20,000 nucleotides of DNA from an uncultured virus (IMG/VR IMGVR_UViG_3300025879_000018) (lineage: Duplodnaviria > Heunggongvirae > Uroviricota > Caudoviricetes > Crassvirales): IMG/VR virus record IMGVR_UViG_3300025879_000018. One strand, given 5' to 3'. The first letter of the stretch is position 1, and every line of letters begins with the position of its first letter. Of this stretch, positions 1 to 19,386 are shown piece by piece. The notes beneath the pieces are model-generated. The model was not told where the DNA came from. It saw nothing but the letters and a program-made list of their open reading frames with translations, and made no database searches. The position numbers and the translations under genes are program-made.

Positions 1-15
1 CACTCTATATTCAAG

Positions 16-6458: not shown

Positions 6459-6809
6459 CTAATATCTAAATCCATTAAATCCTATTATATGTAGAAAAGT
6501 TTCTACTAAATGGGCAATTCTTTTTGAGCGCGTGGCTATGACTATCCTGTACCCAGTTGTATTTCTTTTCTCTTTCGTTTTATGGGCGTTTATTCTTCTA
6601 TTAAGATTGTAAGTCATACCTATGTAATTATGCTTAGGCAGATAGTAAACCACATACTTATCTCGTAGTTTTTTATTTGGCCCATGCTTATCATAGTCTT
6701 TCTTACAAGGTTTGCAATATCTAGCAGCTCCCGATTCTCTTCTGTTATCTCTGTGAAAATCAGATAGAGGTTTATCTAATTTGCATTTACTACAAATCTG
6801 ACGCTTCAT
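6459..6809 (-). CDS. GIY-YIG family nuclease with N-terminal CxxC...CxxC zinc-binding domain
   Basis: CSKC...CKPC, then YVVYYL...NYIGMTYNLNRRINAH with a downstream Glu (HLVE), matching the GIY-YIG pattern. Confidence 0.7.
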   Translation of the reverse strand: MKRQICSKCKLDKPLSDFHRDNRRESGAARYCKPCKKDYDKHGPNKKLRDKYVVYYLPKHNYIGMTYNLNRRINAHKTKEKRNTTGYRIVIATRSKRIAHLVETFLHIIGFNGFRY

Positions 6810-7002
6810 CTGCTGCGCTTTGAATTAATTCTAATTCTTGACGAATATTTGTCAAGAACCTTTGTTTAATAGCTTTGATTTCATCTGGAGATGCCTTGGG
6901 TTCTCCTTCGTCAGTATGACAAGCTTCGTAAAGCTCATCTAACAGGTGGTGCGCATTTAAGCACGACAAGTTGTAAAGTTTAGATAATTCTTCTAGTGTC
7001 AT
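6790..7002 (-). CDS. Hypothetical protein
   Basis: 70 aa ORF with ATGA overlap to the upstream gene, in operon orientation. Confidence 0.65.
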   Translation of the reverse strand: MTLEELSKLYNLSCLNAHHLLDELYEACHTDEGEPKASPDEIKAIKQRFLTNIRQELELIQSAADEASDL

Positions 7003-7409
7003 CTTGAGTTTAGGTATTTCATAATTTCATCTACTTGACCTTTGTTCTTTGGAATAAACAAAGCGTGGTCAGACATACCTGCACTCATTAAGTAACCCAT
7101 AAACAGCTTCCACCTAAGCGGAAACGAATCGTTAGCTCTAACGAATCCTTTTGTCTCTATAAAGACTTTTTCTTTCGGTAAGTAAAAATCTGGCTTATAC
7201 TTAATAGGTAAAACTTTTTTACCTGTAGCATTCACTAGCTCCTTGTTTCTTGGAACAGACTTAAAGTAGTCGGAGGGGTATGTAAACCCCTCCACAAGGA
7301 CAAACTCTTGCTCATAGTCAAATTTGTACTTATGTTGCTTAAGAGAATCACCGCAGTACTTCTCCAATCCGCTCCTGTATATACCAAAAGATTTTTTCTT
7401 CTTAGCCAC
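6999..7409 (-). CDS. T7 endonuclease I-like Holliday junction resolvase (PD-(D/E)xK)
   Basis: YRSGLE...FDYE...YKPDFYL...FIETKG matches the endonuclease I pattern. GTG start. Confidence 0.8.
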   Translation of the reverse strand: MAKKKKSFGIYRSGLEKYCGDSLKQHKYKFDYEQEFVLVEGFTYPSDYFKSVPRNKELVNATGKKVLPIKYKPDFYLPKEKVFIETKGFVRANDSFPLRWKLFMGYLMSAGMSDHALFIPKNKGQVDEIMKYLNSR

Positions 7410-7469
7410 ATACCTAATTTAAGGGAAAAATGCAACATTTTTATTAATAATTTTTACATTTACTAACAA

Positions 7470-9293
7470 TTAGAAAGCGGTGTTTGGGTCAACTATCTGT
7501 GTCTGAATAACATCCACAGGATTATCTAGAATGCTTTTAAACAAAGGCTTTCCGTAAGCATCAGTAAATCCGCTTTGAGATAAATTCATTTGAAATCTCA
7601 ATGGGTCATCAACACTACTAGGCTGTCCGCCTGTCTCTGTCTCACGTATTTTTCTGACGTGAAACTCTACTGTCCTGCGGTCAACTGGGTCATTTGCCTG
7701 CACTTTTCTATGCAGGGTCACAAAATCATCACTGCGGTTCACGAATTTGCCGCCTCCTTCAGTATCCTCCGCATAAGGAGCTACTGGCAGACCATCCGCT
7801 CCTTTTCTACGCTGGGCTTCAGTAACTGCGTGCATATTTAGCCACACTGCAATCTGATGGTTGTTTGCGAATGTCAAGAACTCAGACGATGCCTCATAGT
7901 GATACTCGTGGGTTGATAGCCCACTGCGTTCACTCATATCAATACGCAACGAGTTGTAAGGGTCTATAAAGTAACCTTTGAATCCATCTTTAGCCAACAG
8001 CTTTTCTCCAAATATGATAAGGTCATAGTAGCTGTATACCTGCTTGTTGCTAATCAATACAAAGTGTTCTGATACCCATTCGTAAACAATCTTACGCTGA
8101 GCATAAGACATATCCTTGAGAGGCATATTTGCAGCAAATGTCATCAGCTTCATTTTGATTGATGCTGTTCTGTTTTCTGAGGAATATATAATCCATTTCC
8201 ATCCGTGACGAACTGCTGAGTTTACTATGAGGTATAGGGCGAATGTAGTCTTACCTACATTCGAGTGACCGTTGAGGATAGTAAAGTTAGGCTTGTATCT
8301 CCAATACTCATCCAACAGTTTTGAACCTGTATCTAGTCCCAAGTCTATCTTTCCTTCAGCGTAATCACAAATCCATCTAAAGTCCTCATCATCTGAAGAT
8401 ACGAATGACATATCCCCATCGTTAATAAGCATCTCACGCTTAGCTTTATCCTCTTCATCTATGATTTCGTGGATAGGCATTTGCTTACCCTTTGATAAAC
8501 CATCTGCGATGGTTGCCATAGGGTCATAATGAGAGTCGTAATCTCTCTTGGCGAATTCACGGAACAATACACGTACAACTTCATCCTCTTCCATACGACC
8601 AGCAGAAATATATCCACCACATAGTATAGAAGCCTTGAGAAGCGTGTTGTGTCTATGACCATCTTCTGCCCTCCTAACCATACGAGCAGCAAGGTTAAGC
8701 TTCATATAGTCGGTGAAGACATAATCTTCGTTAACCTCAACCTTTGTAGCCTCGTGGTCTGTTATAAAGTTAGAGAAGACCTTAGCGTCCATCTGTACAA
8801 TCAGCTGAGGGTCGTAAGATTCAAAGCAAGCACGAGACAGATTCTTTCCTGTGCCATCTACCTCAAGACCATAGCTTCTTTCAAAGTACTTCTCTAAGGC
8901 TCTAAAGTGGTCTTCGTGCCTTTCTGTGTTACTTATTCGGACAAGGGCTTTAACTCCATTACCCGAAGGAGAAATCCAGCAAGAGAATATATAATCATCG
9001 GTAGCTAAAGTTCTTTTTACTGAATCGACATCTACATTATCGAGGTCTATAACTATGAACCCAGAGTGTTCAAATATATCGTCATCTTTTCGGGACGAAA
9101 ACGTACCCGAAAAAAGAACTACAGGAAGCTGTTTCTTTAATCCTTTATCTCCAGTAATTCGTAGTTGCTCAACAAGCTCTTGAGAGTTACCTCTCTTAAT
9201 GTTTTTGATAGCATCCCCTAGAGATATGTATTCGGGGCTATCGGTCTCCCATATATTGTGGAAGCAGGTTACTTGGATTTCATTGGGGTTCAT
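7470..9293 (-). CDS. Primase-helicase fusion: BT4734/VirE_N-type AEP + PriCT-like + SF4 (DnaB/Twinkle-like) helicase
   Basis: N-terminal KKQLPVVLFSGTF...SGFIVIDLD...WISPSGNGVK...R.CFESYDP. Middle GHRHNTLLKAS. C-terminal Walker A GHSNVGKTT, YSSEN, Walker B FIDPYN, and KIR arginine finger. Confidence 0.85.
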   Translation of the reverse strand: MNPNEIQVTCFHNIWETDSPEYISLGDAIKNIKRGNSQELVEQLRITGDKGLKKQLPVVLFSGTFSSRKDDDIFEHSGFIVIDLDNVDVDSVKRTLATDDYIFSCWISPSGNGVKALVRISNTERHEDHFRALEKYFERSYGLEVDGTGKNLSRACFESYDPQLIVQMDAKVFSNFITDHEATKVEVNEDYVFTDYMKLNLAARMVRRAEDGHRHNTLLKASILCGGYISAGRMEEDEVVRVLFREFAKRDYDSHYDPMATIADGLSKGKQMPIHEIIDEEDKAKREMLINDGDMSFVSSDDEDFRWICDYAEGKIDLGLDTGSKLLDEYWRYKPNFTILNGHSNVGKTTFALYLIVNSAVRHGWKWIIYSSENRTASIKMKLMTFAANMPLKDMSYAQRKIVYEWVSEHFVLISNKQVYSYYDLIIFGEKLLAKDGFKGYFIDPYNSLRIDMSERSGLSTHEYHYEASSEFLTFANNHQIAVWLNMHAVTEAQRRKGADGLPVAPYAEDTEGGGKFVNRSDDFVTLHRKVQANDPVDRRTVEFHVRKIRETETGGQPSSVDDPLRFQMNLSQSGFTDAYGKPLFKSILDNPVDVIQTQIVDPNTAF

Positions 9294-9307
9294 ATTGGTT
9301 TATTTAA

Positions 9308-9655
9308 TTAAGTTCTTGTTTGATGGTATCCACTGTGATTAAATCCCTCGACTTCTAAAATGGTTTCTTGCCATTCTCTTAGATGAGGCTCTTCTTTCTC
9401 ATCATCGAGTGCAATCTTAAGTAAAATTAAATAACCAATCAAGTCCTTGACGTTATCTTCTCCATATCCACGAAAACCTTGAGTCTTTATACGCATAAGC
9501 TTGTCATCAATCCTTGCGCATAAATTTTCAACAGCATCCCCATTAGCAAAAACATTTGCTGGCTCAAGAGCTGAATCTCCGTAGCTCTCATTCTTTTCGA
9601 TTAGCAAATCAATAACCTCTTGACCTACTCTTCTAATCTTCTCCTGTGTCGTCAT
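9308..9655 (-). CDS. Nmad1/DUF1599-family protein (nucleotide-modification-associated, alpha-helical)
   Basis: LLIEKNESYGDS...RIDDKLMRI...EDNVKDLIGYLILL signature. Confidence 0.75.
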   Translation of the reverse strand: MTTQEKIRRVGQEVIDLLIEKNESYGDSALEPANVFANGDAVENLCARIDDKLMRIKTQGFRGYGEDNVKDLIGYLILLKIALDDEKEEPHLREWQETILEVEGFNHSGYHQTRT

Positions 9656-10133
9656 ATTTAATTAAATTATAAGATTTACAATTTTGTATATCTGAAAGAT
9701 AAATCTTGGATAAAACATCTTTTCTATTTGCTCTCTGATAAAGTTTTAAATAGCAATTGTATTTGTCAGTAAAAACTGGTTCTATTATATTTTTGCAAAC
9801 ATCCAACAGTTCTTTTCTGTCGACCATACAAAAACCTCCAAGCTCTTTCATTTCAAAGGCTATAAACTCTGCTTCTCCATACATCCATCCTAAATTACCG
9901 TGTACGTTTTTAAACTCAATCCAAATTAGATTTGGGTTGTTTCCTCCTTTAACGTCTACTGACGTCTTAGTTCCATCTGGTCTAGTTATATAGAAATCTA
10001 TGTGTTTATATATATCTACATTACTAGGTGTTTTAACAGTGGTGTATCCAATAGATTTACAGGATAAAACAAAAAGCTCCTCTGTTATTTTACCTTTAGA
10101 CCAAGAATCCCGATATCTTTCTTTGCTTACCAT
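9633..10133 (-). CDS. Putative PD-(D/E)xK nuclease-fold protein
   Basis: G..TEELF...HIDFYI...SVDVKG...WIEFKN...GWMYG pattern. Confidence 0.6.
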   Translation of the reverse strand: MVSKERYRDSWSKGKITEELFVLSCKSIGYTTVKTPSNVDIYKHIDFYITRPDGTKTSVDVKGGNNPNLIWIEFKNVHGNLGWMYGEAEFIAFEMKELGGFCMVDRKELLDVCKNIIEPVFTDKYNCYLKLYQRANRKDVLSKIYLSDIQNCKSYNLIKYDDTGED

Positions 10134-10381
10134 TTATAATCTTCTACCCATAAGGGTGTTTTCTCTCCCATCATCGCACCGAAGATGTTGAACTCAGCAA
10201 ACTCTATTGCCTCATCAGCACCCATACCATCACGCTTCATAAGTATGTCAACTACTAGGTTACGAGAGTAAACTACCTTCCAGAGGTTAGGTTCAAATCC
10301 TATGATGGCTTTGTCTAAGCCATCCGCAAACATTACATCTTCAGTGTATGCGAAGTCTTCTTCTATTCTTTCCCTTAGCAT
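10127..10381 (-). CDS. Conserved phage hypothetical protein
   Basis: ADGLDKAIIG...VVYS...GM..DEAIEF.EFNI.GA.MGEKTP, a pattern I recognise from aquatic phage proteins. Confidence 0.7.
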   Translation of the reverse strand: MLRERIEEDFAYTEDVMFADGLDKAIIGFEPNLWKVVYSRNLVVDILMKRDGMGADEAIEFAEFNIFGAMMGEKTPLWVEDYKW

Positions 10382-10384
10382 CTC

Positions 10385-10684
10385 TTAGTCTTTTATAAAA
10401 ACACCATCAACAGTCTTGCCTGTTCTTTTTGAAATCACTGCGTATGCTTTAGCTAGACATATAACTGGGTCTATACCTAGCTGTTCCGACAGAATAATAA
10501 GTGTAACCAAGGTATCACCCATTGCATCTTCAATCTCTGGCATATCGTTCTTAGCGATACCGCTAGATAGTTCACCTACTTCCTCGATTACTTTAAGGAA
10601 TTGTTTACTTACGTTTCCTGCCACCAACAAATCTTTGTTGTCTGCCCATACTTTTACTAATTGCTGTAGTTGTTCAAATTTCAT
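10385..10684 (-). CDS. mazG: MazG-like NTP pyrophosphohydrolase
   Basis: KQFLKVIEEVGELS...EIEDAMGDTLVTLIIL (EExxE...ExxD-type metal site) and C-terminal RTGK. Confidence 0.85.
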   Translation of the reverse strand: MKFEQLQQLVKVWADNKDLLVAGNVSKQFLKVIEEVGELSSGIAKNDMPEIEDAMGDTLVTLIILSEQLGIDPVICLAKAYAVISKRTGKTVDGVFIKD

Positions 10685-10685
10685 A

Positions 10686-10748
10686 TCAATCTTTTTCTAT
10701 TCCGTTATCTTCTTTGTCTCGGTTGCATAATGCTATTATGTCTTTCAT
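10686..10748 (-). CDS. Possible 20-aa mini-ORF
   Basis: MKDIIALCNRDKEDNGIEKD* fills the gap between neighbours almost exactly and has an AAAGAG-ATG start context. Confidence 0.3.
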   Translation of the reverse strand: MKDIIALCNRDKEDNGIEKD

Positions 10749-10752
10749 CTCT

Positions 10753-10926
10753 TTATTTTATTACTCGTTTTGATACCGTGTCAAAGATTTGATAATCCTC
10801 GTAATGTTCTCTTAATCCTCTAATACGGTCTTTAGCCTCTTCTAGTGTGTCAAAACTATCAATCATATCATCCATACCTCCTTGTGGGTAGTAAACGTAA
10901 AATGCAAATAGTAAATACCGTTTCAT
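10753..10926 (-). CDS. Hypothetical protein (57 aa, not in ORF track)
   Basis: MKRYLLFAFYVYYPQGGMDDMIDSFDTLEEAKDRIRGLREHYEDYQIFDTVSKRVIK*. Starts 2 nt after the upstream stop. Confidence 0.7.
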   Translation of the reverse strand: MKRYLLFAFYVYYPQGGMDDMIDSFDTLEEAKDRIRGLREHYEDYQIFDTVSKRVIK

Positions 10927-10928
10927 CT

Positions 10929-11144
10929 CTATTCTTTGTTAAATCTTTTCATCCATTGCCCATAGGCACTATCGGGATGTATCTCTTCTTTATACTTCTC
11001 TGCTGCTTTCAGCAAAGCCTCGTTCGGCTCTTGGTTAATCACATCTGTCTTCTCAAGCGTATCCTTCAGTATCACATTCCAAGCATACTTATCCTTGTCT
11101 GCTTCCCATAGCTTCTCGTACATCTCCAGTAGTATCTCTCTCAT
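10929..11144 (-). CDS. Hypothetical protein, MREILLEMYE family copy 2
   Basis: Start reassigned from 11180 to 11144, because the paralog at 11883 starts with the same MREILLEMYE and both follow the junction motif. Confidence 0.7.
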   Translation of the reverse strand: MREILLEMYEKLWEADKDKYAWNVILKDTLEKTDVINQEPNEALLKAAEKYKEEIHPDSAYGQWMKRFNKE

Positions 11145-11289
11145 TTCTCTTGGTGTTAAAGATTTCTTCATAAACTTCATTGAGTAACATCGCCCAAATC
11201 TGCATCTCCTCTTTTTCAGTTACTATTGGAGTATACTCACATCTCTCAAGTTTTTCTGCTACTTGGTTTAATAATTCTAATCTTGTCAT
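11089..11289 (-). CDS. Hypothetical protein (C-terminus probably extended by a 1-nt deletion in the junction motif)
   Basis: ATGA-coupled to the upstream gene. Reads ...EIFNTKRNE..., where an intact motif would give ...FNTKEK*. Confidence 0.6.
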   Translation of the reverse strand: MTRLELLNQVAEKLERCEYTPIVTEKEEMQIWAMLLNEVYEEIFNTKRNERDTTGDVREAMGSRQG

Positions 11290-11711
11290 CTCTCTTTGGT
11301 TTTAAAGGTTTTTGTTTGCTGCACCATATGCAAAGCAAGTGTCATAAACTGCTTCACCTGTTCTTCATTTGGAAGGTTACTATCCCATTGAATATAACGG
11401 ATGTGTTCAAATGTATCACACCCACTGCAACTGCCATAATATACCTCAGTAAATATATAGTCGGTTAGTGAGGGCTGATAAGAGCTACTGCAAAGTATAA
11501 ATATCTGAGTACCTTGATAGTCTCCATCATCAATGCATTTGTATCTATCCCAATCCCATTCTTTATAACCATAGCTTTCTAATGGTTCAGTAACTACCAA
11601 ACCAAACAGCTTCTTGTAAATCTGCTCATAAGACTCAGGCATATTATTCGTTAGCCATTCCTCAAGAAGGTGCTTGCGCTCTTCCCATTGTTTTACAAAT
11701 TCTAAAATCAT
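11286..11711 (-). CDS. Hypothetical protein with YGSCSGCD motif
   Basis: 141 aa with IDDGDYQGT and YYGSCSGCD motifs. Begins and ends inside junction-motif copies. Confidence 0.8.
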   Translation of the reverse strand: MILEFVKQWEERKHLLEEWLTNNMPESYEQIYKKLFGLVVTEPLESYGYKEWDWDRYKCIDDGDYQGTQIFILCSSSYQPSLTDYIFTEVYYGSCSGCDTFEHIRYIQWDSNLPNEEQVKQFMTLALHMVQQTKTFKTKER

Positions 11712-11757
11712 TTCTCTTTTGTGTTAAAGGTTAATGTTCATTTAAAGACACAAAACC

Positions 11758-11883
11758 CTATTGTTCTGTATCATCTTTGGTCTCTAATTTCTCAAGCGTG
11801 TCCTTCAGTATCACATTCCAAGCCCACTTGTCTTTGTCAGCGTTCCAAAGTTGCTCGTACATCTCCAGTAATATTTCTCTCAT
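11758..11883 (-). CDS. Hypothetical protein, MREILLEMYE family copy 1 (41 aa, not in ORF track)
   Basis: MREILLEMYEQLWNADKDKWAWNVILKDTLEKLETKDDTEQ*. 29 of the first 32 aa are identical to copy 2. Confidence 0.7.
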   Translation of the reverse strand: MREILLEMYEQLWNADKDKWAWNVILKDTLEKLETKDDTEQ

Positions 11884-11904
11884 TTTTCTTTTGTGTTTAA
11901 GGTT

Positions 11905-11994
11905 TGCGCCTACTTTTATATGTGTGCGCCTATAATTGTAAGGTTATACCCTTACTTTGTGTACCATATCGTCAACTTATACCCTTACTTTGTG
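11905..11994. repeat. Intergenic direct repeats: TTATACCCTTACTTTGTG x2 and TGCGCCTA x2
   Basis: Exact 18-mer at 11944-11961 and 11977-11994 (period 33). Exact 8-mer at 11905-11912 and 11925-11932 (period 20). Confidence 0.9.
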
Positions 11995-12006
11995 ACAATT
12001 TAAGGT

Positions 12007-12141
12007 TCATCGTTGTGAGGATTTGCGCTCACAATACCTTGCCCACATCTTCGCTACCCAAGCCCTTCTCTGTTGCTTGTTTGGGTACACTTTCTTTAGT
12101 CTCGCATTTGCAATGCGTAGGAATTGATTCATCCTGTTCAT
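12007..12141 (-). CDS. Small basic hypothetical protein (44 aa, not in ORF track)
   Basis: MNRMNQFLRIANARLKKVYPNKQQRRAWVAKMWARYCERKSSQR*. ATGA overlap with the upstream gene. Confidence 0.6.
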   Translation of the reverse strand: MNRMNQFLRIANARLKKVYPNKQQRRAWVAKMWARYCERKSSQR

Positions 12142-12719
12142 ATTAAATTCTTTACTCTTGCTAATTCTTTTTCTAACTTTTTATTTCTATCGTGTATATC
12201 ACGATTGTGCTTCTTTAGAAAGTCGTTCTCAAGCTTTATTCTATGAGGGTTTTCTAATCCGTCTACCTCATCTTTTAGCTTGTTGTAGTCCACTATCTTT
12301 CTTCTGAGCTTAGAGGATACTTCTATGAGCCTGCTTCTAAGAACATTTAGCTCAAATATCTCGTCCACCTCTCTTTGCATACCACCCTTATCAAGAATTA
12401 CCTGTAGGTTGTTTTTGATTTCGCTGTATATCTTATGATACGATGGGAGATAGTTGAGATTTGACTCGTGATTACGAACAGCGTGTAAAACCGTTGCGTG
12501 GTCTTTATTTATTATACCTCCAATCGTAGCATAAGCAAATCCTGTAACATCTCTACAAGCAACAAAGAATGCGTGCTTTATCGCTATGTTTGGTCTCTGC
12601 CTGTTGTCTTGGAATTGATATTTTTTAGAATAATCTTTCCAAAATTGCAATACAGCAACATACTCATTTGATACAGCTGCAAAATGCTTATAGTTAATTC
12701 TATTTACTTGTTTATTCAT
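12138..12719 (-). CDS. DnaA domain IV (Bac_DnaA_C)-like HTH protein with coiled-coil tail
   Basis: TGFAYATIGGIINKDHATVLHAVRNH parallels the DnaA signature SLxxIGxxFGGRDHTTVLHA. No AAA+ domain. Heptad-rich C-terminus. Confidence 0.75.
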   Translation of the reverse strand: MNKQVNRINYKHFAAVSNEYVAVLQFWKDYSKKYQFQDNRQRPNIAIKHAFFVACRDVTGFAYATIGGIINKDHATVLHAVRNHESNLNYLPSYHKIYSEIKNNLQVILDKGGMQREVDEIFELNVLRSRLIEVSSKLRRKIVDYNKLKDEVDGLENPHRIKLENDFLKKHNRDIHDRNKKLEKELARVKNLI

Positions 12720-12981
12720 TATGTATATCCTCCAATGTTGACTGAATAATTTTGTCTACACCTCTTTGTATCTGCATCATAAGGAATTCATCAGTCTTTC
12801 CGATTTGCTCTATATGAGGACTGACAAACCTCTCTAACTTTTTTTCTAAGTTGTTCATTAGCTGCTTAACGTCTCTTTTGTATATAGCAGTTCCCTTGAG
12901 TTCATCCATCTGCTCAAGTGTTGCTTGCATAAGCAGTATAAGTTTAACTGCCTTTCTGAATCTGATTATGTCTTCCTCCAT
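12712..12981 (-). CDS. Hypothetical helical protein
   Basis: 89 aa ORF overlapping its neighbour by 8 nt, in operon orientation. Confidence 0.7.
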   Translation of the reverse strand: MEEDIIRFRKAVKLILLMQATLEQMDELKGTAIYKRDVKQLMNNLEKKLERFVSPHIEQIGKTDEFLMMQIQRGVDKIIQSTLEDIHNE

Positions 12982-13123
12982 TGTATTTAATTAGTTCTAT
13001 CACATTCCACCAATAATCTTTCTCTTTGTATGGTGCTAGTTCTAAGCACTGAGTCGCTTGTAGTATAGCCTCTGACTCGTTGTATTTATTAAGAAAATAC
13101 AGAGCTTTGGCAGAACTAGTCAT
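12944..13123 (-). CDS. Hypothetical protein (59 aa, not in ORF track)
   Basis: MTSSAKALYFLNKYNESEAILQATQCLELAPYKEKDYWWNVIELIKYNGGRHNQIQKGS* fills the otherwise empty gap and overlaps both neighbours. Confidence 0.6.
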   Translation of the reverse strand: MTSSAKALYFLNKYNESEAILQATQCLELAPYKEKDYWWNVIELIKYNGGRHNQIQKGS

Positions 13124-13322
13124 CTAAAGAATCTTTTATAAGCCTACCAATCTTCTCCTCATCCAAGTGCTGAATCTTTCGCAGCTTTTGTCGCTCTTTA
13201 ACCTTTGCTCTTTCGTAATCAGATTTAGAACAATCTGTACCTAAGTTTTGGAACAGATTTGCGTTCTGCTCAAGGACACAGTCTATGACCTTCTTGTGTT
13301 CGGGGTTGTTGTGGTAAGCCAT
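13116..13322 (-). CDS. Hypothetical protein
   Basis: 68 aa ORF, tightly packed with neighbours. Confidence 0.7.
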   Translation of the reverse strand: MAYHNNPEHKKVIDCVLEQNANLFQNLGTDCSKSDYERAKVKERQKLRKIQHLDEEKIGRLIKDSLDD

Positions 13323-13326
13323 ATTA

Positions 13327-13521
13327 TTAAAATTTAAGTAATCGTAATCTTCTTTCGTATTTTCTAATTAGATTTCCCATACTATCTAGGCGCTTATCAA
13401 CTCCGTTGTGAAACCCAGTAGCTGAAGAACTAACAACAGTGTTTATAATATCCCAGTGCAAGTCAGAGATATATCTCTTAGTGTAACGCAGATGCATCTG
13501 CTTTCTTAAATACTTTTTCAT
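13327..13521 (-). CDS. Hypothetical basic protein
   Basis: 64 aa ORF, tightly packed with neighbours. Confidence 0.65.
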   Translation of the reverse strand: MKKYLRKQMHLRYTKRYISDLHWDIINTVVSSSATGFHNGVDKRLDSMGNLIRKYERRLRLLKF

Positions 13522-13816
13522 CGTGCTTTTTTGATAACATTCTTAGTCTTATTGATTGAGCAACTCTAAAGTTTTCGTTGTAGTCAAACTGGGTCAACAG
13601 CTTCTCGTTATGCTTTTTAGAGGCATAACGAATGTTATTCGTGTCTTTTATAGAGAACAGGTCTCTCAAGTCATACATAGAAGCTTCTTCAATGAAAGCG
13701 TTAATGAATGCCTGTCTCTTGTTTGTGTTAACTCTGTCTGACTTGTCATCGATACTACCAACTACATTGGTGTATCGCTCTAGTGCGTACTCAAGGTCTT
13801 TAATCTTGAACTCCAT
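13478..13816 (-). CDS. Hypothetical protein, possibly a divergent DnaA domain IV-like HTH
   Basis: RVN..KRQAF...KD....YA..KH...Y spacing parallels RPN..KHAF...KDHATVLHAVRNH...Y of 12138-12719. Confidence 0.55.
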   Translation of the reverse strand: MEFKIKDLEYALERYTNVVGSIDDKSDRVNTNKRQAFINAFIEEASMYDLRDLFSIKDTNNIRYASKKHNEKLLTQFDYNENFRVAQSIRLRMLSKKHDEKVFKKADASALH

Positions 13817-14012
13817 ATCCGATTAGTTTTTTATCTAAAATCTTTAGTATTAAAATATCTCCTTGTTTAGATTTACCATATACAGCATCCTTAACTCTGT
13901 TAACTGTAATAGGTCTGCGGTTTAGGTCTGCAACATTTTCTCCCTTACTAACGATTTCAATCTCTCGTCTCATTGTCGATTTTCCCTTTTTGTAGCTTAC
14001 TAATAGCTTCAT
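13800..14012 (-). CDS. Hypothetical basic protein
   Basis: Part of ORF 13800..14045. The start is more likely at 14012 (MKLLVSYKKG) or 13973. Confidence 0.55.
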   Translation of the reverse strand: MKLLVSYKKGKSTMRREIEIVSKGENVADLNRRPITVNRVKDAVYGKSKQGDILILKILDKKLIGYGVQD

Positions 14013-14433
14013 CAGATAAATCGGCATCGTCCAGTTTGTTGACACTTATCTCGAATTTACGTTTGATTACAGGAATAAGTTCAGACATTAAAAATCTGTC
14101 CTTGTTATTCTTCATTAGCATACAAGCGTCTTCCGTCTTCAGTACTACACAATTGTTATTAGGCTTGTTCCAAATACAAAGCACAGCATAGTCTGAGTTA
14201 CCAAGAGATTCCGTCTCAATACAATCAGTATTGACGTATGGTATATTTTCTTTTATGTAAAAGTTGGTAAAATATATTTCGAACTTGACTTTACCCTTGG
14301 TTTTAGGTGAAATAAATTCTGCATATGGAGGATTTAGGGACTCACACTTGAGTCCCCAATCCAAAGCCATATACATTCCAATAGCGTTACTCCAATTCTT
14401 GGACATCTCGCCTTGGAATCCCTGCTTATCCAT
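13957..14433 (-). CDS. Hypothetical protein
   Basis: 158 aa with a TAATG 1-nt overlap to the upstream SSB-like gene. Confidence 0.65.
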   Translation of the reverse strand: MDKQGFQGEMSKNWSNAIGMYMALDWGLKCESLNPPYAEFISPKTKGKVKFEIYFTNFYIKENIPYVNTDCIETESLGNSDYAVLCIWNKPNNNCVVLKTEDACMLMKNNKDRFLMSELIPVIKRKFEISVNKLDDADLSDEAISKLQKGKIDNETRD

Positions 14434-14720
14434 TAGAATGGCAATCCGTCTGCTTGAGCAGCGTTAGAATTGTTAGCAGGAGCTGTTGTGTTTCCAGAGC
14501 TAGGGTCATAGACCTTAATCATATTGTAAGCCTTACCAGCCTTGCTCATTCCAGATACAGCAGTAAGGTACACACGACCTTGCTTTCCTTCTTTACCTTG
14601 AGTAGCGTAGCGCTTCAAGTCTTCCAATTCTGAAAGAGTTAATGAAAAGCGAGACTCAATACGTGGAGTTTCGCAGTAACCCACTAGCGGTGAGTTGTTG
14701 TTGTTTTGATTTTGTGACAT
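14433..14720 (-). CDS. Putative single-stranded DNA-binding protein
   Basis: Small beta-rich core, N/A-rich flexible linker and terminal DGLPF resembling the SSB C-terminal tip. Downstream of ERF and the exonuclease. Confidence 0.6.
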   Translation of the reverse strand: MSQNQNNNNSPLVGYCETPRIESRFSLTLSELEDLKRYATQGKEGKQGRVYLTAVSGMSKAGKAYNMIKVYDPSSGNTTAPANNSNAAQADGLPF

Positions 14721-14727
14721 TTTAAAA

Positions 14728-15549
14728 TCAGATTAAATTAAACAATGCAAAGGTGTTCGTATCCTTTGTTGGGTTTGAGAGCCATCTATCGATGTTCTCG
14801 ATTGCAGACCAAAACTTCCGTTCTCCACTTGCGATGGTAGACTCTGAAGCTTTGTAAACGGCACACAGGTAAGGCTTTGACTTTTGTTGACAAACCCAAT
14901 AAAAGGTGTCAATTCCTAACACTGCGGTGTAGATGTAAGCTTGAATGTCATAGTTGTAACTATTGACATCGTACTTAAATCCACTTATAGAGCGAGTAGT
15001 TTTGCTATCTGAGATGAATCCATCTCCTAGTACATCAAGAAACCCTCTCACAGGTATCTCTCCTATCCATCCGTTAATCTCGTACTGAGCATCTCCAGTT
15101 AGATAGTCTCGAACCATTTTAATTTCGCCAGTCTCGGTATCGAGTACTTCGGAGTTGTCGAGGCGGAGAATCATATTCTCAGCCATCGACATATCCTCCT
15201 CAGAGACTATGAGTTTACCCGAATCTTCCGCTTCCTTTTGTTGTGTCGCCACAGCCTCTTTATAGGCTTTGGAAGACCTAGGATTCTTATAGTCTTTGCT
15301 TAGCGCTGAGACTATCTCAGCATCGTCTAACACATAAAACTGTTCGTGAGCCTTCTCTGGTTCAAGGAGTAGACAATCGTATAGTTTACCAAAGGACAGC
15401 GCAGGAGAATCCTTTCGGAGCAGACCCCTCATATACAATTCAAACAGCTTCATATCTTGGTCACGAGAGCCATCCGCAGCATACTTGAGAGCGGAGTACG
15501 AAACATACCCCTTACCTGTTACCTCTTGTAATCTAAGTGCAAAGTCCAT
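14728..15549 (-). CDS. PD-(D/E)xK exonuclease (RecE/exonuclease VIII, DUF3799-like)
   Basis: SYSALK...ALSFGKLYDCLLLEP...VRGFLDVL...ISDSKTT...YDIQAYIY. Confidence 0.8.
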   Translation of the reverse strand: MDFALRLQEVTGKGYVSYSALKYAADGSRDQDMKLFELYMRGLLRKDSPALSFGKLYDCLLLEPEKAHEQFYVLDDAEIVSALSKDYKNPRSSKAYKEAVATQQKEAEDSGKLIVSEEDMSMAENMILRLDNSEVLDTETGEIKMVRDYLTGDAQYEINGWIGEIPVRGFLDVLGDGFISDSKTTRSISGFKYDVNSYNYDIQAYIYTAVLGIDTFYWVCQQKSKPYLCAVYKASESTIASGERKFWSAIENIDRWLSNPTKDTNTFALFNLI

Positions 15550-16127
15550 TACTTAACGAATTTCTTGAGTGCGCCTAGTTGTTTCTCAGAGAAAGTACTT
15601 CCGTACTTACTTTCGATTTGAGAATAAGCTTGTTTTTTGTCTTTAGCAGACTTTAAGTAATCAATACACTTTTGGAATGCATCAGAAGTAGGAGAAGCTG
15701 TAGAATTAGAAGTTGATTGTGAACTAGTACTCTTTCCGTGAGTGTTGGTGGCATCAGCATCCTTGGTATCGTCAATCAAGAACATACCATTGAGTGCATA
15801 CTTTCTAGCATATGAGCTAGAACTACCATAAGACTGAGCGATATCCATACCCTTACGATTAGGGTCTATCCCTGCTTGTGCTGAAGCATAAATGCTATCA
15901 GCACCATCAGTAACTACTACGGTTGCATTGATAAACACAGCTCCGCCTACCTCCATAACCTCATCGGTTACACGCATAGACAAACCATTGCTTGCAAGTA
16001 AAGGCTTAACAGATTCTAAGATGTCCTCAGCTGAGCGGTAAGCATACTTACCAAAGCTGTTATATTGCCCCTTAGGAGCTTTTAGTTCTGACTGCACTTT
16101 GATAAGTGCTTTGTTTAATTTTTCCAT
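15549..16127 (-). CDS. erf: ERF-family single-strand annealing protein
   Basis: LKAPKGQYNSFGKYAYRSAEDILESVKPLL...AQSYGSSSSYARKYALNGMFLIDDTKDAD, the ERF signature. Confidence 0.92.
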   Translation of the reverse strand: MEKLNKALIKVQSELKAPKGQYNSFGKYAYRSAEDILESVKPLLASNGLSMRVTDEVMEVGGAVFINATVVVTDGADSIYASAQAGIDPNRKGMDIAQSYGSSSSYARKYALNGMFLIDDTKDADATNTHGKSTSSQSTSNSTASPTSDAFQKCIDYLKSAKDKKQAYSQIESKYGSTFSEKQLGALKKFVK

Positions 16128-16172
16128 TTGGTTGAATTGAATTTAAGGCAAGTTAAAAAATAATTTCAGTAA

Positions 16173-16586
16173 TCAAAGAGTTTTTCGATAAAAAATTCTT
16201 TCGGGCATTGTTCCGTAGTACCAAGAGGTAACACCACAAAGCCATAGCTCTTCGCCAGTATCAGCGTGTTCGTAGTCAGCGCCATCTCCGAAGGGGTCTT
16301 CCTTAGTCTTTATTAGTATCTCTGCTTCATCGAAATGTTCTAGAGATACGTGAAGGGTAACATCGTTCCTATCCCAAGACCTCAAGCTCTCAAGCAAATC
16401 ATCAGCACCCTCTACCATCTCTAGATTCCACTTGCCACCCTTCCATTCTGGAAGGTCGACATACCATCTACCATTATGTTCTTTGTAGAATCTAAACTCT
16501 CTTGTAGTCTTACCTAAGTGAGACGGCAAGAGAGAGATGATGAATGATTTGATACGCTTGTAAATATTTTTGATTTTTGTTTGCAT
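16173..16586 (-). CDS. DUF6717-like protein
   Basis: FYKE..GRWYVDLPEW...LEMVEGADDLL...LWLCGVT..YYG.MPERIF. Confidence 0.6.
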   Translation of the reverse strand: MQTKIKNIYKRIKSFIISLLPSHLGKTTREFRFYKEHNGRWYVDLPEWKGGKWNLEMVEGADDLLESLRSWDRNDVTLHVSLEHFDEAEILIKTKEDPFGDGADYEHADTGEELWLCGVTSWYYGTMPERIFYRKTL

Positions 16587-16623
16587 ATGTTTAGAATCTG
16601 TATTTATTATATAATTATCTATC

Positions 16624-16668
16624 TATTATATATCATTATCCCTTAGGGGGATAATGATTTATATAATA
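16624..16668. repeat. AT-rich inverted repeat/hairpin
   Basis: ATCATTATCCC (16632-16642) pairs with GGGATAATGAT (16648-16658). The stem extends through TATTATAT/ATATAATA past a 2-nt bulge. Confidence 0.85.
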
Positions 16669-16672
16669 TTAT

Positions 16673-16828
16673 CTAATAAGGGGGAGTTCGTTTACGTCTA
16701 AGTATAAATACTCTGTTGCCAACCTTGAATACCATAGAGCGCCCATTCACTCTTACTGAGTGAACAGGCACGCCTAGTACTTTTGTCTTAGAAGACAAGA
16801 AGGTATACAGCTTAGAAGGAATCAACAT
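16673..16828 (-). CDS. Possible small basic protein
   Basis: 3' part of ORF 16673..16906. The ATG at 16828 overlaps the end of the DUF932 gene by 17 nt. Confidence 0.35.
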   Translation of the reverse strand: MLIPSKLYTFLSSKTKVLGVPVHSVRVNGRSMVFKVGNRVFILRRKRTPPY

Positions 16829-17705
16829 TGATAAACTCTTGAAGAGTATTGGTATCAACCATCTTGAGTACCTCATTGTACCCAATGTTAGACAGCTTGT
16901 AACCACCGCCTACCATAAGGTAGGTGTTCTTAGCATCTACATCTCTCGGAGCTGCTACGTGGTTAGTGTAACGAGTCACTGCATTGAACAAAGACCATAG
17001 AGTCTTGCCGTGTGTATTGACCTCAGTAACAAGGGAATCAGCAAAGCTCTGCACTTGGTTTGACTTGCGAGTTGACACACTATCTTCGGGTGCATCAAGG
17101 CTTACCTTGAACATAGCACGGATGGTGCGGTCAACAGCCTCGTCAGTCAACGTAGTTGCATCGAAAGCTTTGTAAGTCTGAATCAAATTGAACTCCTCAC
17201 GGATAGCATCTTGTAGCTGTGATATACTCACTGAGATACTTGACTCTGCATTACGAGTGTGGCGGTGTTTAGACTTCATCTCCTTAAGGGTACGATAGAA
17301 TCCGTTGCTACACACTAACACTTTGTTAGCTACGCCAAAGGCGATAGATGTAGAGCCATCGTGAGAGTTCATAGCTGTGATAAATCTCTTGATATTAGAA
17401 GCACCTACACGTTCTTGCTCAAGCTCTGCTTGTAGGTATATCTTTTTACCACCTTGTAAAGAGCCACCATTAGTGATAGGGATACCTGCTACGTCAGTAA
17501 GCTCGACCATACGCTCCACAAGTTGGGAGTTCTGATAAGGTGTGTAACGCTCACCTGCTGTACCCAACCAAGCGTTGTTGTCATTACGGAAGATGCCGTA
17601 GCTCTCAGTAGGTAAACCATCCTCAGATACGAGAGGTTTCTTTTCTACTGACCAATTAAGTCCTGTCGATTGAAGGACATCGAAAGTTTTTTGAAAGTTA
17701 TCCAT
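16812..17705 (-). CDS. DUF932-family (TIGR03299-like) phage/plasmid protein
   Basis: GLNWSVEKKPL...RYTPYQN...GSLQGGKKIYLQ...NSHDGS...VCSNG...HRHT...TLWSLFNAVTRY. Start reassigned to ATG 17705, because the longer TTG start overlaps the promoter. Confidence 0.85.
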   Translation of the reverse strand: MDNFQKTFDVLQSTGLNWSVEKKPLVSEDGLPTESYGIFRNDNNAWLGTAGERYTPYQNSQLVERMVELTDVAGIPITNGGSLQGGKKIYLQAELEQERVGASNIKRFITAMNSHDGSTSIAFGVANKVLVCSNGFYRTLKEMKSKHRHTRNAESSISVSISQLQDAIREEFNLIQTYKAFDATTLTDEAVDRTIRAMFKVSLDAPEDSVSTRKSNQVQSFADSLVTEVNTHGKTLWSLFNAVTRYTNHVAAPRDVDAKNTYLMVGGGYKLSNIGYNEVLKMVDTNTLQEFINVDSF

Positions 17706-17738
17706 AAGATTGAATTTAATTTGGCGTTGTTGCCGTTG

Positions 17739-17770
17739 CAAATATATAATTATCGAAGTGCCGATGTCAA
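17739..17770 (-). promoter_or_regulatory. Bacteroidetes sigma-ABfr-type promoter (-33 TTG / -7 TAnnTTTG)
   Basis: Minus strand TTG (17770-17768), 21-nt spacer, then TATATTTG (17746-17739), ~34 nt upstream of the DUF932 ATG. Confidence 0.75.
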
Positions 17771-17836
17771 GCAATCAGTCATATTTTTTTTCGTAAAAAT
17801 AGCTAACTGCTTGATTATCAGCGAGAAAAATTTTAT

Positions 17837-18070: not shown

Positions 18071-18072
18071 AG

Positions 18073-19378: not shown

Positions 19379-19386
19379 GTTATTAA

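What the first reader, a model, noticed from the sequence alone, without database searches (positions are those of the whole stretch)
11142..11905. Gene-cassette array delimited by a ~25-nt start-codon-supplying repeat (integron-like, no integrase seen)
Seen: four copies of AAACCTTTAACACCAAAGAGAAATG(A), spaced 145, 422 and 172 nt apart, each ending exactly in the ATG of the next small gene. The terminal ATGA can also act as the stop for the previous gene, as in ...KTFKTKER* at 11286. The copies at 11709 and 11881 follow non-coding DNA, with in-frame stops just upstream, so the motif is conserved at nucleotide level and not for a peptide. Weaker look-alikes occur at ~10924-10948 and ~10746-10760. 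Known: Bacteroidetes initiate translation from A-rich, SD-less leaders. Inference: the motif is a portable translation-coupling and recombination junction that lets small genes be inserted, deleted and shuffled while staying expressed. This could be driven by microhomology and the phage's own ERF/exonuclease.
Basis: partly seen in the sequence, partly recalled or inferred. Interest (0 to 1): 0.8.

Follow-up and report, generated by a model that had tools for sequence, protein, structure and literature searches.

The report
Start-codon junction block shuffling phage genes
A nearly invariant 26-letter stop-and-start sequence sits in front of several small genes of this marine phage and of well over a hundred related virus fragments, and it marks the exact seams where such genes have been swapped between phages.

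Summary
There are four copies of AAACCTTTAACACNAAAGAGAAATG(A) at 11142-11905, each ending in a start codon, plus two decayed copies at 10924 and 10746. It is not a generic start signal. No other gene start in the window has it, and ten larger contigs hold 1-8 copies in one short cluster on one strand.

The block is widespread. In those, 146 of 152 copies are followed directly by ATG. Conservation ends sharply at both edges of the block. It follows coding DNA in two frames as well as non-coding DNA.

Flanks reassort at it. Among 156 contexts, 66 pairs share only the upstream side, 68 only the downstream side and 2 share both. Homologues of the window's own cassettes elsewhere end at the block copies.

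It is not an integron: no integrase was seen in the window and there is no attC-like structure. The closest analogues are the T4-type PeSL cassettes and the mycobacteriophage start-associated sequences.

A sister allele (AACCTTTAAATCAGAATAAGATG) is equally common and was never found in the same loci as the first.

Recombination at the block is well supported. Its role in translation, and the enzyme that does the exchange, are inferred. An earlier scan note (e1-6153674) describes a similar element on other DNA; I could not check whether it is the same one.

The parts
11881..11905 (-). Junction block copy 4, the first in the direction of transcription. It follows the non-coding leader and ends in the ATG of the 41-aa ORF.
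11709..11733 (-). Junction block copy 3. It lies after a 24-nt non-coding spacer and ends in the ATG of the 141-aa ORF.
   Evidence: 39.1 bits. DNA homology to L022 stops at 11732 and homology to L290 starts at 11744.
11286..11311 (-). Junction block copy 2. It encodes the tail ...KTFKTKER of the 141-aa ORF. Its ATGA is the stop of that ORF and the start of the next.
   Evidence: 40.0 bits. Homology to L290 ends at 11286 and homology to L008 begins at 11311.
11142..11166 (-). Junction block copy 1. It has one substitution and one deleted A, so the upstream ORF misses the ATGA stop and runs on for 17 codons. It ends in the ATG of the 71-aa ORF.
   Evidence: Homology to L008 ends at 11141. A contig of run X2 covering 11122-11750 is identical to the window, with no gaps (table 8).
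10924..10948 (-). Decayed block copy (AAAGATTTAACAAAGAATAGAGATG) before the 57-aa ORF.
   Evidence: 15.2 bits, at the shuffle maximum. Homologues of the 57-aa ORF in L290 and L159 carry the canonical block. Homology to L290 begins at 10949.
10746..10770 (-). Strongly decayed block copy before a 20-codon ORF.
   Evidence: 6.9 bits, not significant alone. Homologues of the 20-aa ORF in L041 (95% identity) and L056 are led by the canonical block.
11758..11883 (-). Cassette ORF c41 (MREILLEMYEQLW...), a paralogue of c71.
   Evidence: D1; 97.6% identical copies in L022 and L078; no Pfam or PHROG family.
11286..11711 (-). Cassette ORF c141 (phrog_12588, function unknown).
   Evidence: Homologues: L290 (83%, led by the canonical block) and L291/L292 (66%, led by the sister allele).
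11089..11289 (-). Cassette ORF c66. It is the read-through form of a 49-aa gene and overlaps c71 by 56 nt.
10929..11144 (-). Cassette ORF c71 (MREILLEMYEKLW...). The start at 11144 is the homologous one. An in-frame ATG at 11180 lies inside c66.
10753..10926 (-). Cassette ORF c57 (phrog_1411, function unknown).
10686..10748 (-). Cassette micro-ORF c20 (MKDIIALCNRDKEDNGIEKD). Its stop lies one base before the MazG start codon.
11906..12006 (-). Non-coding leader in front of the array. It holds two copies of CACAAAGTAAGGGTATAA and two copies of TAGGCGCA. The TAGGCGCA-...-TAGGCGCAA part directly precedes the first block in 7 other contigs as well. It is a candidate early promoter, operator or origin, but the function is not shown.
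   Evidence: D8; upstream cluster 46: 8 members, 8 different downstream genes; only weak sigma-70-like matches.
12007..12141 (-). 44-aa basic ORF (p44), the last gene before the array. Homologues lie upstream of block arrays in 19 of the 124 contigs found with the block, and in 5 primase relatives.
   Evidence: It is also present in L127, which has no block, so it is not tied to the block.

Best explanation
The repeat is a conserved stop/start gene-junction block, about 26 nt long: WA-ACCTTTAACACCAAAGAGA(A/G)-ATG-A. It lies in the early, accessory-gene region of uncultured marine phages that probably infect Flavobacteriaceae.

Anatomy of the block:
- It holds a TAA in the frame of the coming ATG and a TGA overlapping that ATG, so upstream reading frames are closed in two of three frames.
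- It provides an unstructured, A-rich leader without a Shine-Dalgarno sequence.
- It provides the start codon of the next small gene.

It is the only sequence shared by dozens of otherwise unrelated small genes. Because of this it is the seam at which these genes are exchanged, inserted, lost and duplicated by homologous recombination, within and between co-infecting phages. The result is one hyperplastic cassette array per genome.

Shown here:
- The block's sharp edges and its fixed fusion to ATG.
- Its occurrence after coding DNA (two frames) and non-coding DNA.
- Its restriction to one cluster on one strand.
- The reassortment of its flanks.

Inferred:
- That exchange is by homologous recombination between short identical blocks, with crossovers inside the block.
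- That the block serves translation initiation or re-initiation.
- Which recombinase acts.
For: (1) Spread and link to ATG. The 23-mer pattern ending in ATG hits at least 124 viral loci and 166 copies. The 21-mer without ATG hits at least 126 loci. Of 152 distinct copies, 146 are followed by ATG and 138 by ATGA; two of the six exceptions still abut an ATG one base nearer the block.

(2) Sharp edges. Information content is about 0 outside positions -2 to +23 in 156 copies.

(3) Conservation is of nucleotides. Of 134 copies, 55 close an upstream ORF at the TGA, 19 at the internal TAA, 2 are read through, and 58 follow non-coding or short-ORF DNA. The A after ATG is kept in 55 of 57 copies in non-coding contexts as well.

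(4) Diverse cargo. There are 108 complete downstream ORFs, median 57 aa, in 52 blastp clusters. Upstream ORFs of the two alleles pooled fall into 29-34 clusters. Of 16 representatives, 14 have no Pfam family and 13 have no PHROG.

(5) Reassortment. Among 156 distinct contexts, 2 pairs share both flanks at 80% or more, 66 share only the upstream flank and 68 only the downstream flank. Of 26 upstream-flank clusters with two or more members, 25 are joined to two or more different downstream genes. Pairwise identity falls from about 0.9 to about 0.3 exactly at the block edges. Variants at -3/-2 travel with the upstream flank. Variants at +19 and +24/25 travel with the downstream flank.

(6) The window's own cassettes. 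DNA homology blocks to L022, L290 and L008 begin and end within 12 nt of block copies. L290 has c141 directly followed by c57, while the window has c66 and c71 between them.

(7) The syntenic relatives L126 and L127 (79-85% primase identity) carry different genes in this slot.

(8) One cluster per genome. Ten larger contigs hold 1-8 copies, all on one strand and within 1-2 kb. A reversed-pattern control gave 0 hits.

(9) Contig ends lie within 150 nt of the block in 24 of 79 loci, against 2.3 expected. In run X2, contigs identical to the window have depth 40-51 on the backbone but 12.9 on the contig 11122-11750, which ends at block copies 1 and 3.

(10) It is not a host signal. There are only 14 hits in 596 Gb of prokaryote genomes. 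Nine are followed by ATGA; four of these are in Flavobacteriaceae or Flavobacteriales MAGs, and several of the rest are on short, probably misbinned contigs.
Against: - There are no expression, ribosome or transcript-end data, so the translational role rests on position alone.
- The block matches only some of the positive determinants reported for Flavobacterium johnsoniae. A at 0, -3 and -12 match; positions -6 and -13 are G and C (PMC6847099 section 15). Generic start-site preferences therefore do not explain its near-invariance.
- Close relatives fill the same slot with genes that lack the block (L127: 0 copies), so the block is not needed for expression there.
- The flank-sharing classes use my own 80%/40-nt thresholds, and these thresholds partly shape the identity profile.
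- Only 4 junction contexts recur letter for letter in two contigs, so most junctions are seen once, in metagenome assemblies.
- The joints in the laid contigs have sides of 31 nt or less, and the repeat itself can produce them.
- Much of the 5' half of the block doubles as the last codons (..ETF..) of one abundant small-protein family, so part of its conservation may be coding.
Confidence: 0.7

Rival explanations
1. The block is only an expression signal: a translation-initiation or coupling element, or the binding site of a phage or host factor on the mRNA, like the start-associated sequences of cluster K mycobacteriophages. On this view, breakpoints sit at it only because recombinants that damage it are lost. 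It does not itself promote exchange.
For: - Fixed fusion to ATG in 146 of 152 copies.
- Near-invariance across very different contigs of 4-212 kb, which is more than homology for recombination would need.
- All copies of an array share one allele, and alleles A and B never mix: 0 of 124 and 0 of 123 loci. A lineage-specific trans factor would produce this pattern.
- The block is predicted to be unpaired.
Against: - The slot is expressed without the block in close relatives (L127).
- There is no significant complementarity to a Flavobacteriales 16S rRNA: -13.0 kcal/mol against -13.5 +/- 2.0 for shuffles.
- The rate of one-sided flank sharing (134 pairs against 2) needs very frequent exchange at exactly this place.
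- Variants inside the block segregate with the nearer flank, which suggests crossovers inside the block.
Confidence: 0.15
2. The block is simply the conserved 3' end of one abundant family of small phage proteins (MKTPMQELIE/MKQTAVEWL ... AKEMEKEQI ... YYNETF) together with the start of the next gene. Its many copies come from tandem duplication and descent of that family, not from a portable junction.
For: - 16-19 of 51 distinct upstream ORFs for allele A, and 69-71 of 77 for allele B, belong to this family.
- 20 of 108 downstream ORFs also belong to it, so tandem paralogues exist.
- Weak upstream signal of TACTACAACGAA (YYNE).
Against: - For allele A, the remaining 32-35 upstream ORFs are unrelated to the family, and the upstream ORFs of both alleles pooled fall into 29-34 clusters.
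- 58 of 134 copies follow non-coding DNA, and 19 close a different reading frame.
- The block also follows tRNA 3' ends (L006, L102) and p44 homologues (L075, L090).
- Information content drops to about 0 upstream of -3.
- This explanation may well describe the origin of the block, but not its present distribution.
Confidence: 0.07
3. The block is the target of a site-specific enzyme, such as an integron-type or other recombinase, or a homing endonuclease whose double-strand breaks trigger local gene conversion. Exchange would then be enzyme-directed rather than driven by homology.
For: - Free-standing HNH/NUMOD4 endonuclease genes are among the cassettes (L021, confirmed by Pfam and PHROGs; L089, by its N-terminal sequence).
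- The window encodes an HNH/EndoVII-like and an endonuclease I-like protein.
- The seam is very precise.
Against: - There is no integrase or recombinase family among the 30 window ORFs scanned.
- There is no inverted repeat or hairpin of the attC kind.
- Variants within the block segregate partly with each flank rather than switching at one fixed point. This is thin evidence.
- The endonuclease cassettes are rare.
Confidence: 0.05
4. The block acts at the DNA level as a promoter or operator, such as a stoperator-like repressor site or a promoter for leaderless transcripts.
For: It is asymmetric, in one orientation and repeated through an early region, like the stoperators mentioned in PMC3203893. 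The first copy lies just downstream of a conserved leader that has repeated boxes.
Against: - There is zero spacing variation to the ATG.
- Many copies overlap upstream coding sequence.
- Nothing is conserved where a -33/-35 element would lie.
- There is no match on the sense strand to the Bacteroidetes -7 consensus TAnnTTTG. That consensus is recalled from memory, not tested against a model.
- Sigma-70-like matches in the region are at the level of shuffles: 11 found against 8.2 +/- 2.9.
Confidence: 0.03
5. The reassortment is an artefact of chimeric metagenome assembly across a short repeat.
For: Most junction combinations are seen in a single contig. Contigs often break next to the block.
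Against: - The block is 26 nt, which is shorter than reads and shorter than the final k-mers of common assemblers (my own knowledge).
- Four junctions recur letter for letter in separate contigs.
- A Logan contig of run X2 bridges copy 2 with 0 differences from the window.
- Assemblers break at the arrays rather than joining across them.
Confidence: 0.02

Closest known systems
PeSL (promoter-early stem-loop) cassettes of T4-type phages (Arbiol et al. 2010, PMC2839356; Comeau et al. 2014, PMC4122927; abstracts and outlines read)
   Same: Both are short conserved regulatory sequences repeated between small non-essential genes of unknown function in hyperplastic regions. Insertions, deletions and replacements between related phages map to them, and they serve as points of exchange between otherwise unrelated sequences.
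   Different: PeSLs are a sigma-70-like early promoter plus a terminator stem-loop, and they act on transcription. The block here is about 26 nt, has no stem-loop and no conserved promoter geometry. It is fused to the start codon and often overlaps the end of the upstream gene. PeSL mini-circles were shown physically; nothing comparable could be tested here.
Start-associated sequences (SAS/ESAS) of cluster K mycobacteriophages (Pope et al. 2011, PMC3203893; passages of section 15 and figure legends read)
   Same: Both are asymmetric short repeats in one orientation, restricted to the non-structural part of the genome. Both lie immediately upstream of start codons, mostly ATG, of genes from different families, and sometimes contain the stop of the upstream gene. 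Both are virtually absent from host genomes, have lineage-specific variants, and have an unknown function with a suspected role in translation.
   Different: SAS is 13 bp (GGGATAGGAGCCC), contains a Shine-Dalgarno core and sits 3-7 bp from the start. The block here is about 26 nt, has no Shine-Dalgarno sequence, and abuts and includes the ATG(A). In the passages I read, SAS was not described as a recombination seam. Here, flank reassortment is the main finding.
Boundary or linker sequences of lambdoid phages, part of the modular theory (recalled: Susskind and Botstein 1978; Juhala et al. 2000; Clark et al. 2001; not read here)
   Same: Both involve short conserved sequences at gene boundaries, proposed as sites where homologous recombination joins unrelated modules.
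   Different: As I recall, those sequences are few, weakly conserved and disputed. Here one block is nearly invariant in more than 150 copies, and the seam is resolved to within about 26 nt.
Integron gene-cassette arrays (IntI, attI, attC; features recalled)
   Same: Both are arrays of small, mostly promoterless accessory genes in one orientation, separated by a recurrent junction element.
   Different: No tyrosine recombinase was seen. The junction is conserved in sequence, not in folded structure, and it is 26 nt rather than the 57-141 nt imperfect palindromes of attC. It also supplies the start codon. Exchange is best explained by homology.

Membership tests
Integron cassette array | An IntI-type tyrosine recombinase gene next to the array | tested here: not met
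   Pfam and PHROG scans of 30 window ORFs found no integrase or recombinase. Only the 20-kb window was scanned, not the whole genome, which is not held.
Integron cassette array | attC sites: imperfect inverted repeats that fold as single-strand hairpins, conserved in structure rather than sequence | tested here: not met
   No inverted repeat spans the junctions. Folds of the four junctions have z-scores of +0.49, -0.02, +2.24 and -1.73. The sequence is nearly invariant.
PeSL regulatory cassettes (T4-type phages) | Composite of a strong sigma-70-like early promoter and a terminator stem-loop | tested here: not met
   There is no stem-loop. Nothing is conserved upstream of -3. Promoter-like hits are at shuffle level.
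PeSL regulatory cassettes (T4-type phages) | Located in hyperplastic regions of small non-essential genes, with indels and replacements between relatives mapping to the motif | tested here: met
PeSL regulatory cassettes (T4-type phages) | Formation of circular cassette DNAs by exchange between neighbouring motifs | not testable with these tools
   Only assembled contigs of public runs could be laid. One 'goes back' joint (11904 to 10864) has a 31-nt side and is not reliable.
Start-associated sequences (cluster K mycobacteriophages) | Short asymmetric repeat within a few bases of start codons, in one orientation, in the non-structural region | tested here: met
   146 of 152 copies abut ATG. All copies lie on one strand in one cluster in 10 of 10 contigs. 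In the window the array lies between replication genes.
Start-associated sequences (cluster K mycobacteriophages) | The consensus 5'-GGGATAGGAGCCC with a Shine-Dalgarno core, 3-7 bp from the start | tested here: not met
   The sequence is different, there is no GGAGG core, and there is no spacer. The element works like an SAS but is not a member of that family.
Start-associated sequences (cluster K mycobacteriophages) | Virtual absence from host genomes | tested here: met
   There are 14 hits of the 21-mer in 596 Gb, with one genome per species. Nine of them have ATGA, and several of those are on short, probably misbinned contigs. The host itself is only inferred.

The most novel reading that the evidence does not exclude
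The block and its sister allele are the cis-sites of a dedicated, lineage-specific cassette system of marine Bacteroidota phages. Each allele would be read by its own trans-acting factor, such as a nuclease that nicks or cuts it, or an RNA-binding protein that loads ribosomes on it. On this reading the block both licenses expression of any small gene placed behind it and actively promotes its capture and exchange. It would be a recombinase-free functional counterpart of the integron. The mutually exclusive alleles would define separate exchange pools.
Probability: 0.2. Interest if true: 0.85.

Novelty: new variant of a known kind. Interest (0 to 1): 0.66.

Why it matters
Phage accessory genes are the largest pool of genes of unknown function, and it is poorly understood how they move between genomes while staying expressed. 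Here a single 26-nt block, fused to the start codon, marks the seams of exchange for at least 52 families of small genes in well over a hundred uncultured marine phage contigs. A second, mutually exclusive allele does the same in another set of contigs.

This gives three things:
- A concrete, mutable sequence with which short-homology shuffling can be tested in Flavobacteriaceae phages.
- A candidate SD-independent start or re-start signal for hosts whose ribosomes ignore Shine-Dalgarno sequences.
- A practical marker for finding hyperplastic regions, and for explaining contig breaks, in marine viromes.

Tried and rejected
- **Whole genome of the window:** none is held.
- **DNA similarity to cultured phages:** 5 kb of the window gives no match. 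The block gives one weak 22/24 match in a Flavobacterium psychrophilum phage. The sister allele gives none, although the low-complexity filter may hide short hits. A member of the YYNETF protein family gives no match by tblastn.
- **rRNA complementarity, on the model of an 'epsilon'-type enhancer (that resemblance is recalled):** not better than shuffles, either over the whole 16S rRNA or at its 3' tail.
- **Rfam:** no hit at E <= 1.
- **RNA structure:** none.
- **p44 as the trans factor:** it is present in L127, which has no block, and is nearly absent from allele-B loci. Dropped.
- **ERF as the necessary driver:** found in 3 of 10 contigs.
- **Joints and loose ends in laid contigs:** many end at block copies (11141-11151, 11286, 11310-11313, 11703-11708, 11897). 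However, every side is 31 nt or less, and a repeat produces such joints by itself. They were not used as evidence of deletions or circles. Stretches without cover in runs X3-X5 were not interpreted.
- **Earlier notes of this scan:** sequence look-ups found nothing. Word look-ups found e1-6153674, whose motif I could not compare.
- **Literature:** 0 papers hold either motif string. Searches for flavobacterial or Cellulophaga phage junction motifs gave nothing relevant. Subscription journals are not covered.
- **Fuzzy-regex scan:** it missed the copy at 11881, so the PWM scan replaces it.
- **Not run:** the metagenome-contig scan, structure prediction and complex prediction. None would have changed the reading.
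Full report
**1. Observation**

The window's genes from 6459 to 19977 run on the minus strand. There are copies at 11881-11905, 11709-11733, 11287-11311 and 11142-11166, and each ends in the ATG of an ORF.

The three ungapped copies are found with up to 3 mismatches, against 0 in any of 200 shuffles. They score 30-40 bits with a PWM built from copies in other contigs, where the shuffle maximum is 15.6. The fourth copy has one substitution and one deleted A.

The ATGA at 11286-11289 ends the 141-aa ORF (...KTFKTKER*) and starts the next ORF.

- The ORFs after the copies at 11142 and 11881 are paralogues (MREILLEMYE...), so for that pair the similarity runs 102 nt at 86%.
- The deleted A makes ORF 11089-11289 run 17 codons past its ancestral stop. 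Its homologues in L008 and L068 are 49 aa and end ...TFNTKER*/...TFKTKEK*.

**2. Setting**

The region is a phage early/replication module. In order of transcription it holds:
- DUF932
- DUF6717
- ERF (15549-16127)
- a PD-(D/E)XK exonuclease (14728-15549)
- small ORFs
- a DnaA-C-like HTH protein (12138-12719)
- a 44-aa ORF
- a 101-nt leader containing two kinds of direct repeat
- the array
- MazG (10385-10684)
- three ORFs
- primase-helicase (7470-9293)
- endonucleases

Leaders lack Shine-Dalgarno sequences. The nearest cultured phages by primase infect Maribacter, Flavobacterium, Cellulophaga, Nonlabens and Tenacibaculum, at 34% identity or less. A marine Flavobacteriaceae host is therefore an inference.

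**3. Not a generic start signal**

None of the other roughly 30 minus-strand and 4 plus-strand gene starts in the window carries the block. In ten larger contigs that hold it there are 1-8 copies. All are on one strand and inside one 1-2 kb cluster, and the reversed pattern gave 0 hits. In two contigs rated complete, the cluster straddles the contig ends.

**4. Spread and anatomy**

The 23-mer pattern with ATG matches at least 124 viral loci and 166 copies.

To avoid forcing the ATG, I rescanned with the 21-mer alone. This gave at least 126 loci and 152 distinct copies. Of these, 146 are followed at once by ATG and 138 by ATGA. Two of the six exceptions still abut an ATG one base nearer the block.

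Across 156 copies the information content is about zero outside positions -2 to +23, so the block is about 26 nt with sharp edges.

It contains TAA in the frame of the ATG, and TGA overlapping the ATG. Of 134 copies with enough upstream DNA:
- 55 close a long upstream frame at the TGA, adding the tail TFNTKEK/R
- 19 close another frame at the TAA
- 2 are read through
- 58 follow non-coding or short-ORF DNA

The A after ATG is kept in 55 of 57 non-coding cases too. Conservation is therefore of nucleotides.

Downstream there are 108 complete ORFs, median 57 aa, in 52 clusters. Of 16 representatives, 14 have no Pfam family and 13 have no PHROG. One is an HNH/NUMOD4 homing endonuclease.

In 596 Gb of prokaryote genomes the 21-mer occurs 14 times. 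Nine of these have ATGA. They lie in Flavobacteriaceae, Flavobacteriales and Saprospiraceae MAGs or on short, probably misbinned contigs. Neither the block nor its sister allele is found in 50,697 cultured-phage records.

**5. Seams of exchange**

Among 156 distinct 103-nt contexts, 2 pairs share both flanks at 80% or more, 66 share only the upstream flank and 68 only the downstream flank. Four contexts recur letter for letter in two contigs. With 100-nt flanks the figures are 1, 53 and 60 among 142 copies.

Of 26 upstream-flank clusters with two or more members, 25 are joined to two or more different downstream genes, and the same holds in reverse. For example, the leader ...TAGGCGCA-N13-TAGGCGCAA precedes eight different genes in eight contigs, the window included.

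Mean identity of one-sided pairs falls from about 0.9 to about 0.3 exactly at the block edges. My thresholds shape part of this profile, but not its sharpness. Variable positions at -3/-2 go with the upstream flank, and +19 and +24/25 go with the downstream flank. This fits crossovers inside the block, but the data are thin.

The window's own cassettes behave the same way:
- DNA homology to L022 covers 11933 to 11732.
- Homology to L290 covers 11744 to 11286, and then 10949 to 10758.
- Homology to L008 covers 11311 to 11141.
- L290 has c141 directly followed by c57, where the window has two more cassettes in between.

Syntenic relatives with 79-85% primase identity carry other genes in this slot. 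L127 has none of the cassettes and no block. L126 has one MREILL gene with a decayed leader and one canonical block before an unrelated 156-aa gene.

Contig ends lie within 150 nt of the block in 24 of 79 loci, against 2.3 expected.

Four marine or estuarine runs were laid as contigs. In all four, summed depth at 11757-11990 is many times the depth of the backbone. In run X2, contigs identical to the window have depth 40-51 on the backbone but 12.9 on the piece 11122-11750, whose ends fall at block copies 1 and 3. The joints listed in that call have sides of 31 nt or less, and I do not rely on them.

**6. What it is not**

- **Integron:** no recombinase among the 30 ORFs scanned, no inverted repeat and no fold.
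- **Promoter of the known kinds:** nothing is conserved where an upstream element would lie, and sigma-70-like hits are at shuffle level.
- **Known RNA family:** no Rfam hit.
- **Sequence complementary to 16S rRNA:** -13.0 kcal/mol against -13.5 +/- 2.0 for shuffles.
- **Generic optimum for Flavobacterium translation:** the published positive determinants are A at 0, -3, -6, -12 and -13. The block has A at 0, -3 and -12, but G at -6 and C at -13 (PMC6847099, abstract and section 15 read).

**7. A sister allele and a possible origin**

Homologues of the 141-aa gene in L291/L292 are led by AACCTTTAAATCAGAATAAGATG, and so are the next genes. Its flanks reassort in the same way: 1 pair shares both, 19 share only the upstream side and 24 only the downstream side, among 124 copies.

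The two alleles were never found in the same loci: 0 of 124 and 0 of 123 loci. Their neighbourhoods also differ.

Both alleles overlap the last codons of one abundant family of small viral proteins (MKTPMQELIE/MKQTAVEWL ... AKEMEKEQI ... YYNETF). This family accounts for 16-19 of 51 upstream ORFs for allele A and 69-71 of 77 for allele B. It has no Pfam or PHROG family, and the atlas returns only viral hypothetical proteins. The block may have arisen from the 3' end of this family. That remains speculation.

**8. Mechanism**

Shown: a fixed stop/start block that is the only shared sequence between unrelated small genes, that lies in one array per genome, and at which flanks reassort.

Inferred:
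- Exchange is homologous recombination between identical 26-nt blocks in co-infecting or resident phages. Phage annealing proteins are reported to favour recombination between short or diverged sequences (PMC3945230, title and start of abstract seen only).
- The block provides an open, A-rich start and, through the TAA/TGA, hands terminating ribosomes on to the next gene.

ERF is present in the window, but in only 3 of 10 larger block-bearing contigs, some of them incomplete. It is therefore not shown to be the driver.

**9. Comparison and novelty**

In function, the closest known systems are the PeSL cassettes of T4-type phages (PMC2839356 and PMC4122927, abstracts read). In position, the closest are the start-associated sequences of cluster K mycobacteriophages (PMC3203893, passages read). 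The block meets the hyperplastic-region and breakpoint features of PeSLs but not their promoter-terminator make-up. It meets the positional features of SAS but has a different sequence, a different length and no Shine-Dalgarno core.

No paper in the library holds either motif string. Subscription journals are not covered.

It may be the same or a sister element. I could not compare the sequences.

I class the finding as a new variant of a known kind.

Noticed in passing
window 11089-11289 and 11142-11166: A one-base deletion in the A-run of junction copy 1 removes the ATGA stop. The 49-aa gene therefore becomes a 66-aa ORF overlapping the next gene by 56 nt. A contig of public run X2 covering 11122-11750 is identical to the window with no gaps, so the deletion is unlikely to be an error peculiar to this assembly.
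   Followed up: partly
window 11906-12006: The leader before the array holds two copies of CACAAAGTAAGGGTATAA (33 nt apart) and two copies of TAGGCGCA (21 nt apart). The TAGGCGCA pair recurs directly before the first block in 7 other contigs, each time with a different first gene. It is a candidate early promoter, operator or replication origin next to a DnaA-C-like HTH gene.
   Followed up: partly
L291/L292 3001-3981; L296-L418: A sister junction allele, AACCTTTAAATCAGAATAAGATG, occurs in at least 123 viral loci. It shows the same flank reassortment and was never found in a locus that also holds allele A. A possible third variant (AACCTTTAA-ACAACAAGAACA-ATG) was seen 7 times.
   Followed up: partly
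L001 1384-1602, L018 3454-3732 and many other loci: There is a very abundant family of 70-100-aa viral proteins with conserved ends (MKTPMQELIE or MKQTAVEWL ... AKEMEKEQI ... YYNETF) and variable middles. Its members are often in tandem, and its last codons form the 5' half of the junction block. It has no Pfam or PHROG family.
   Followed up: partly
window 11757-11990 in runs X2-X5: Summed contig depth over the MREILL gene start, the block and the leader is 80-750. The phage backbone has depth 5-50 in runs X2-X4 and lower, patchy cover in X5. So this short segment is shared by many co-occurring phages in four marine or estuarine metagenomes.
   Followed up: no
L006 about 2975-3023; L102 about 275-323: The block directly follows what looks like the 3' end of a tRNA gene (GGTTCGAGTCC...), so tRNA genes can also be neighbours in these arrays.
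   Followed up: no
L021 525-1022; L089: Free-standing HNH/NUMOD4 homing-endonuclease genes occur as block-led cassettes. L021 was confirmed by Pfam and PHROGs. L089 was judged only from its N-terminal sequence.
   Followed up: partly
window 10686-10748: A 20-codon ORF (MKDIIALCNRDKEDNGIEKD) ends one base before the MazG start. Its ...ALCNRD..(Y/N)GIE(N/K)D motif recurs as a block-led micro-ORF, or as the C-terminus of longer ORFs, in at least 7 other loci.
   Followed up: partly
window 1-5085: A 1,689-aa plus-strand ORF has no Pfam or PHROG match. It is followed by a DUF5675 gene and is probably a large virion or tail protein.
   Followed up: no
L126 8240-8290: In the closest relative that has an MREILL gene, the block seems to have lost about 9 nt, including its ATG, between AGAGA repeats. 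The gene now starts at a new upstream ATG (MTQREILL...).
   Followed up: no
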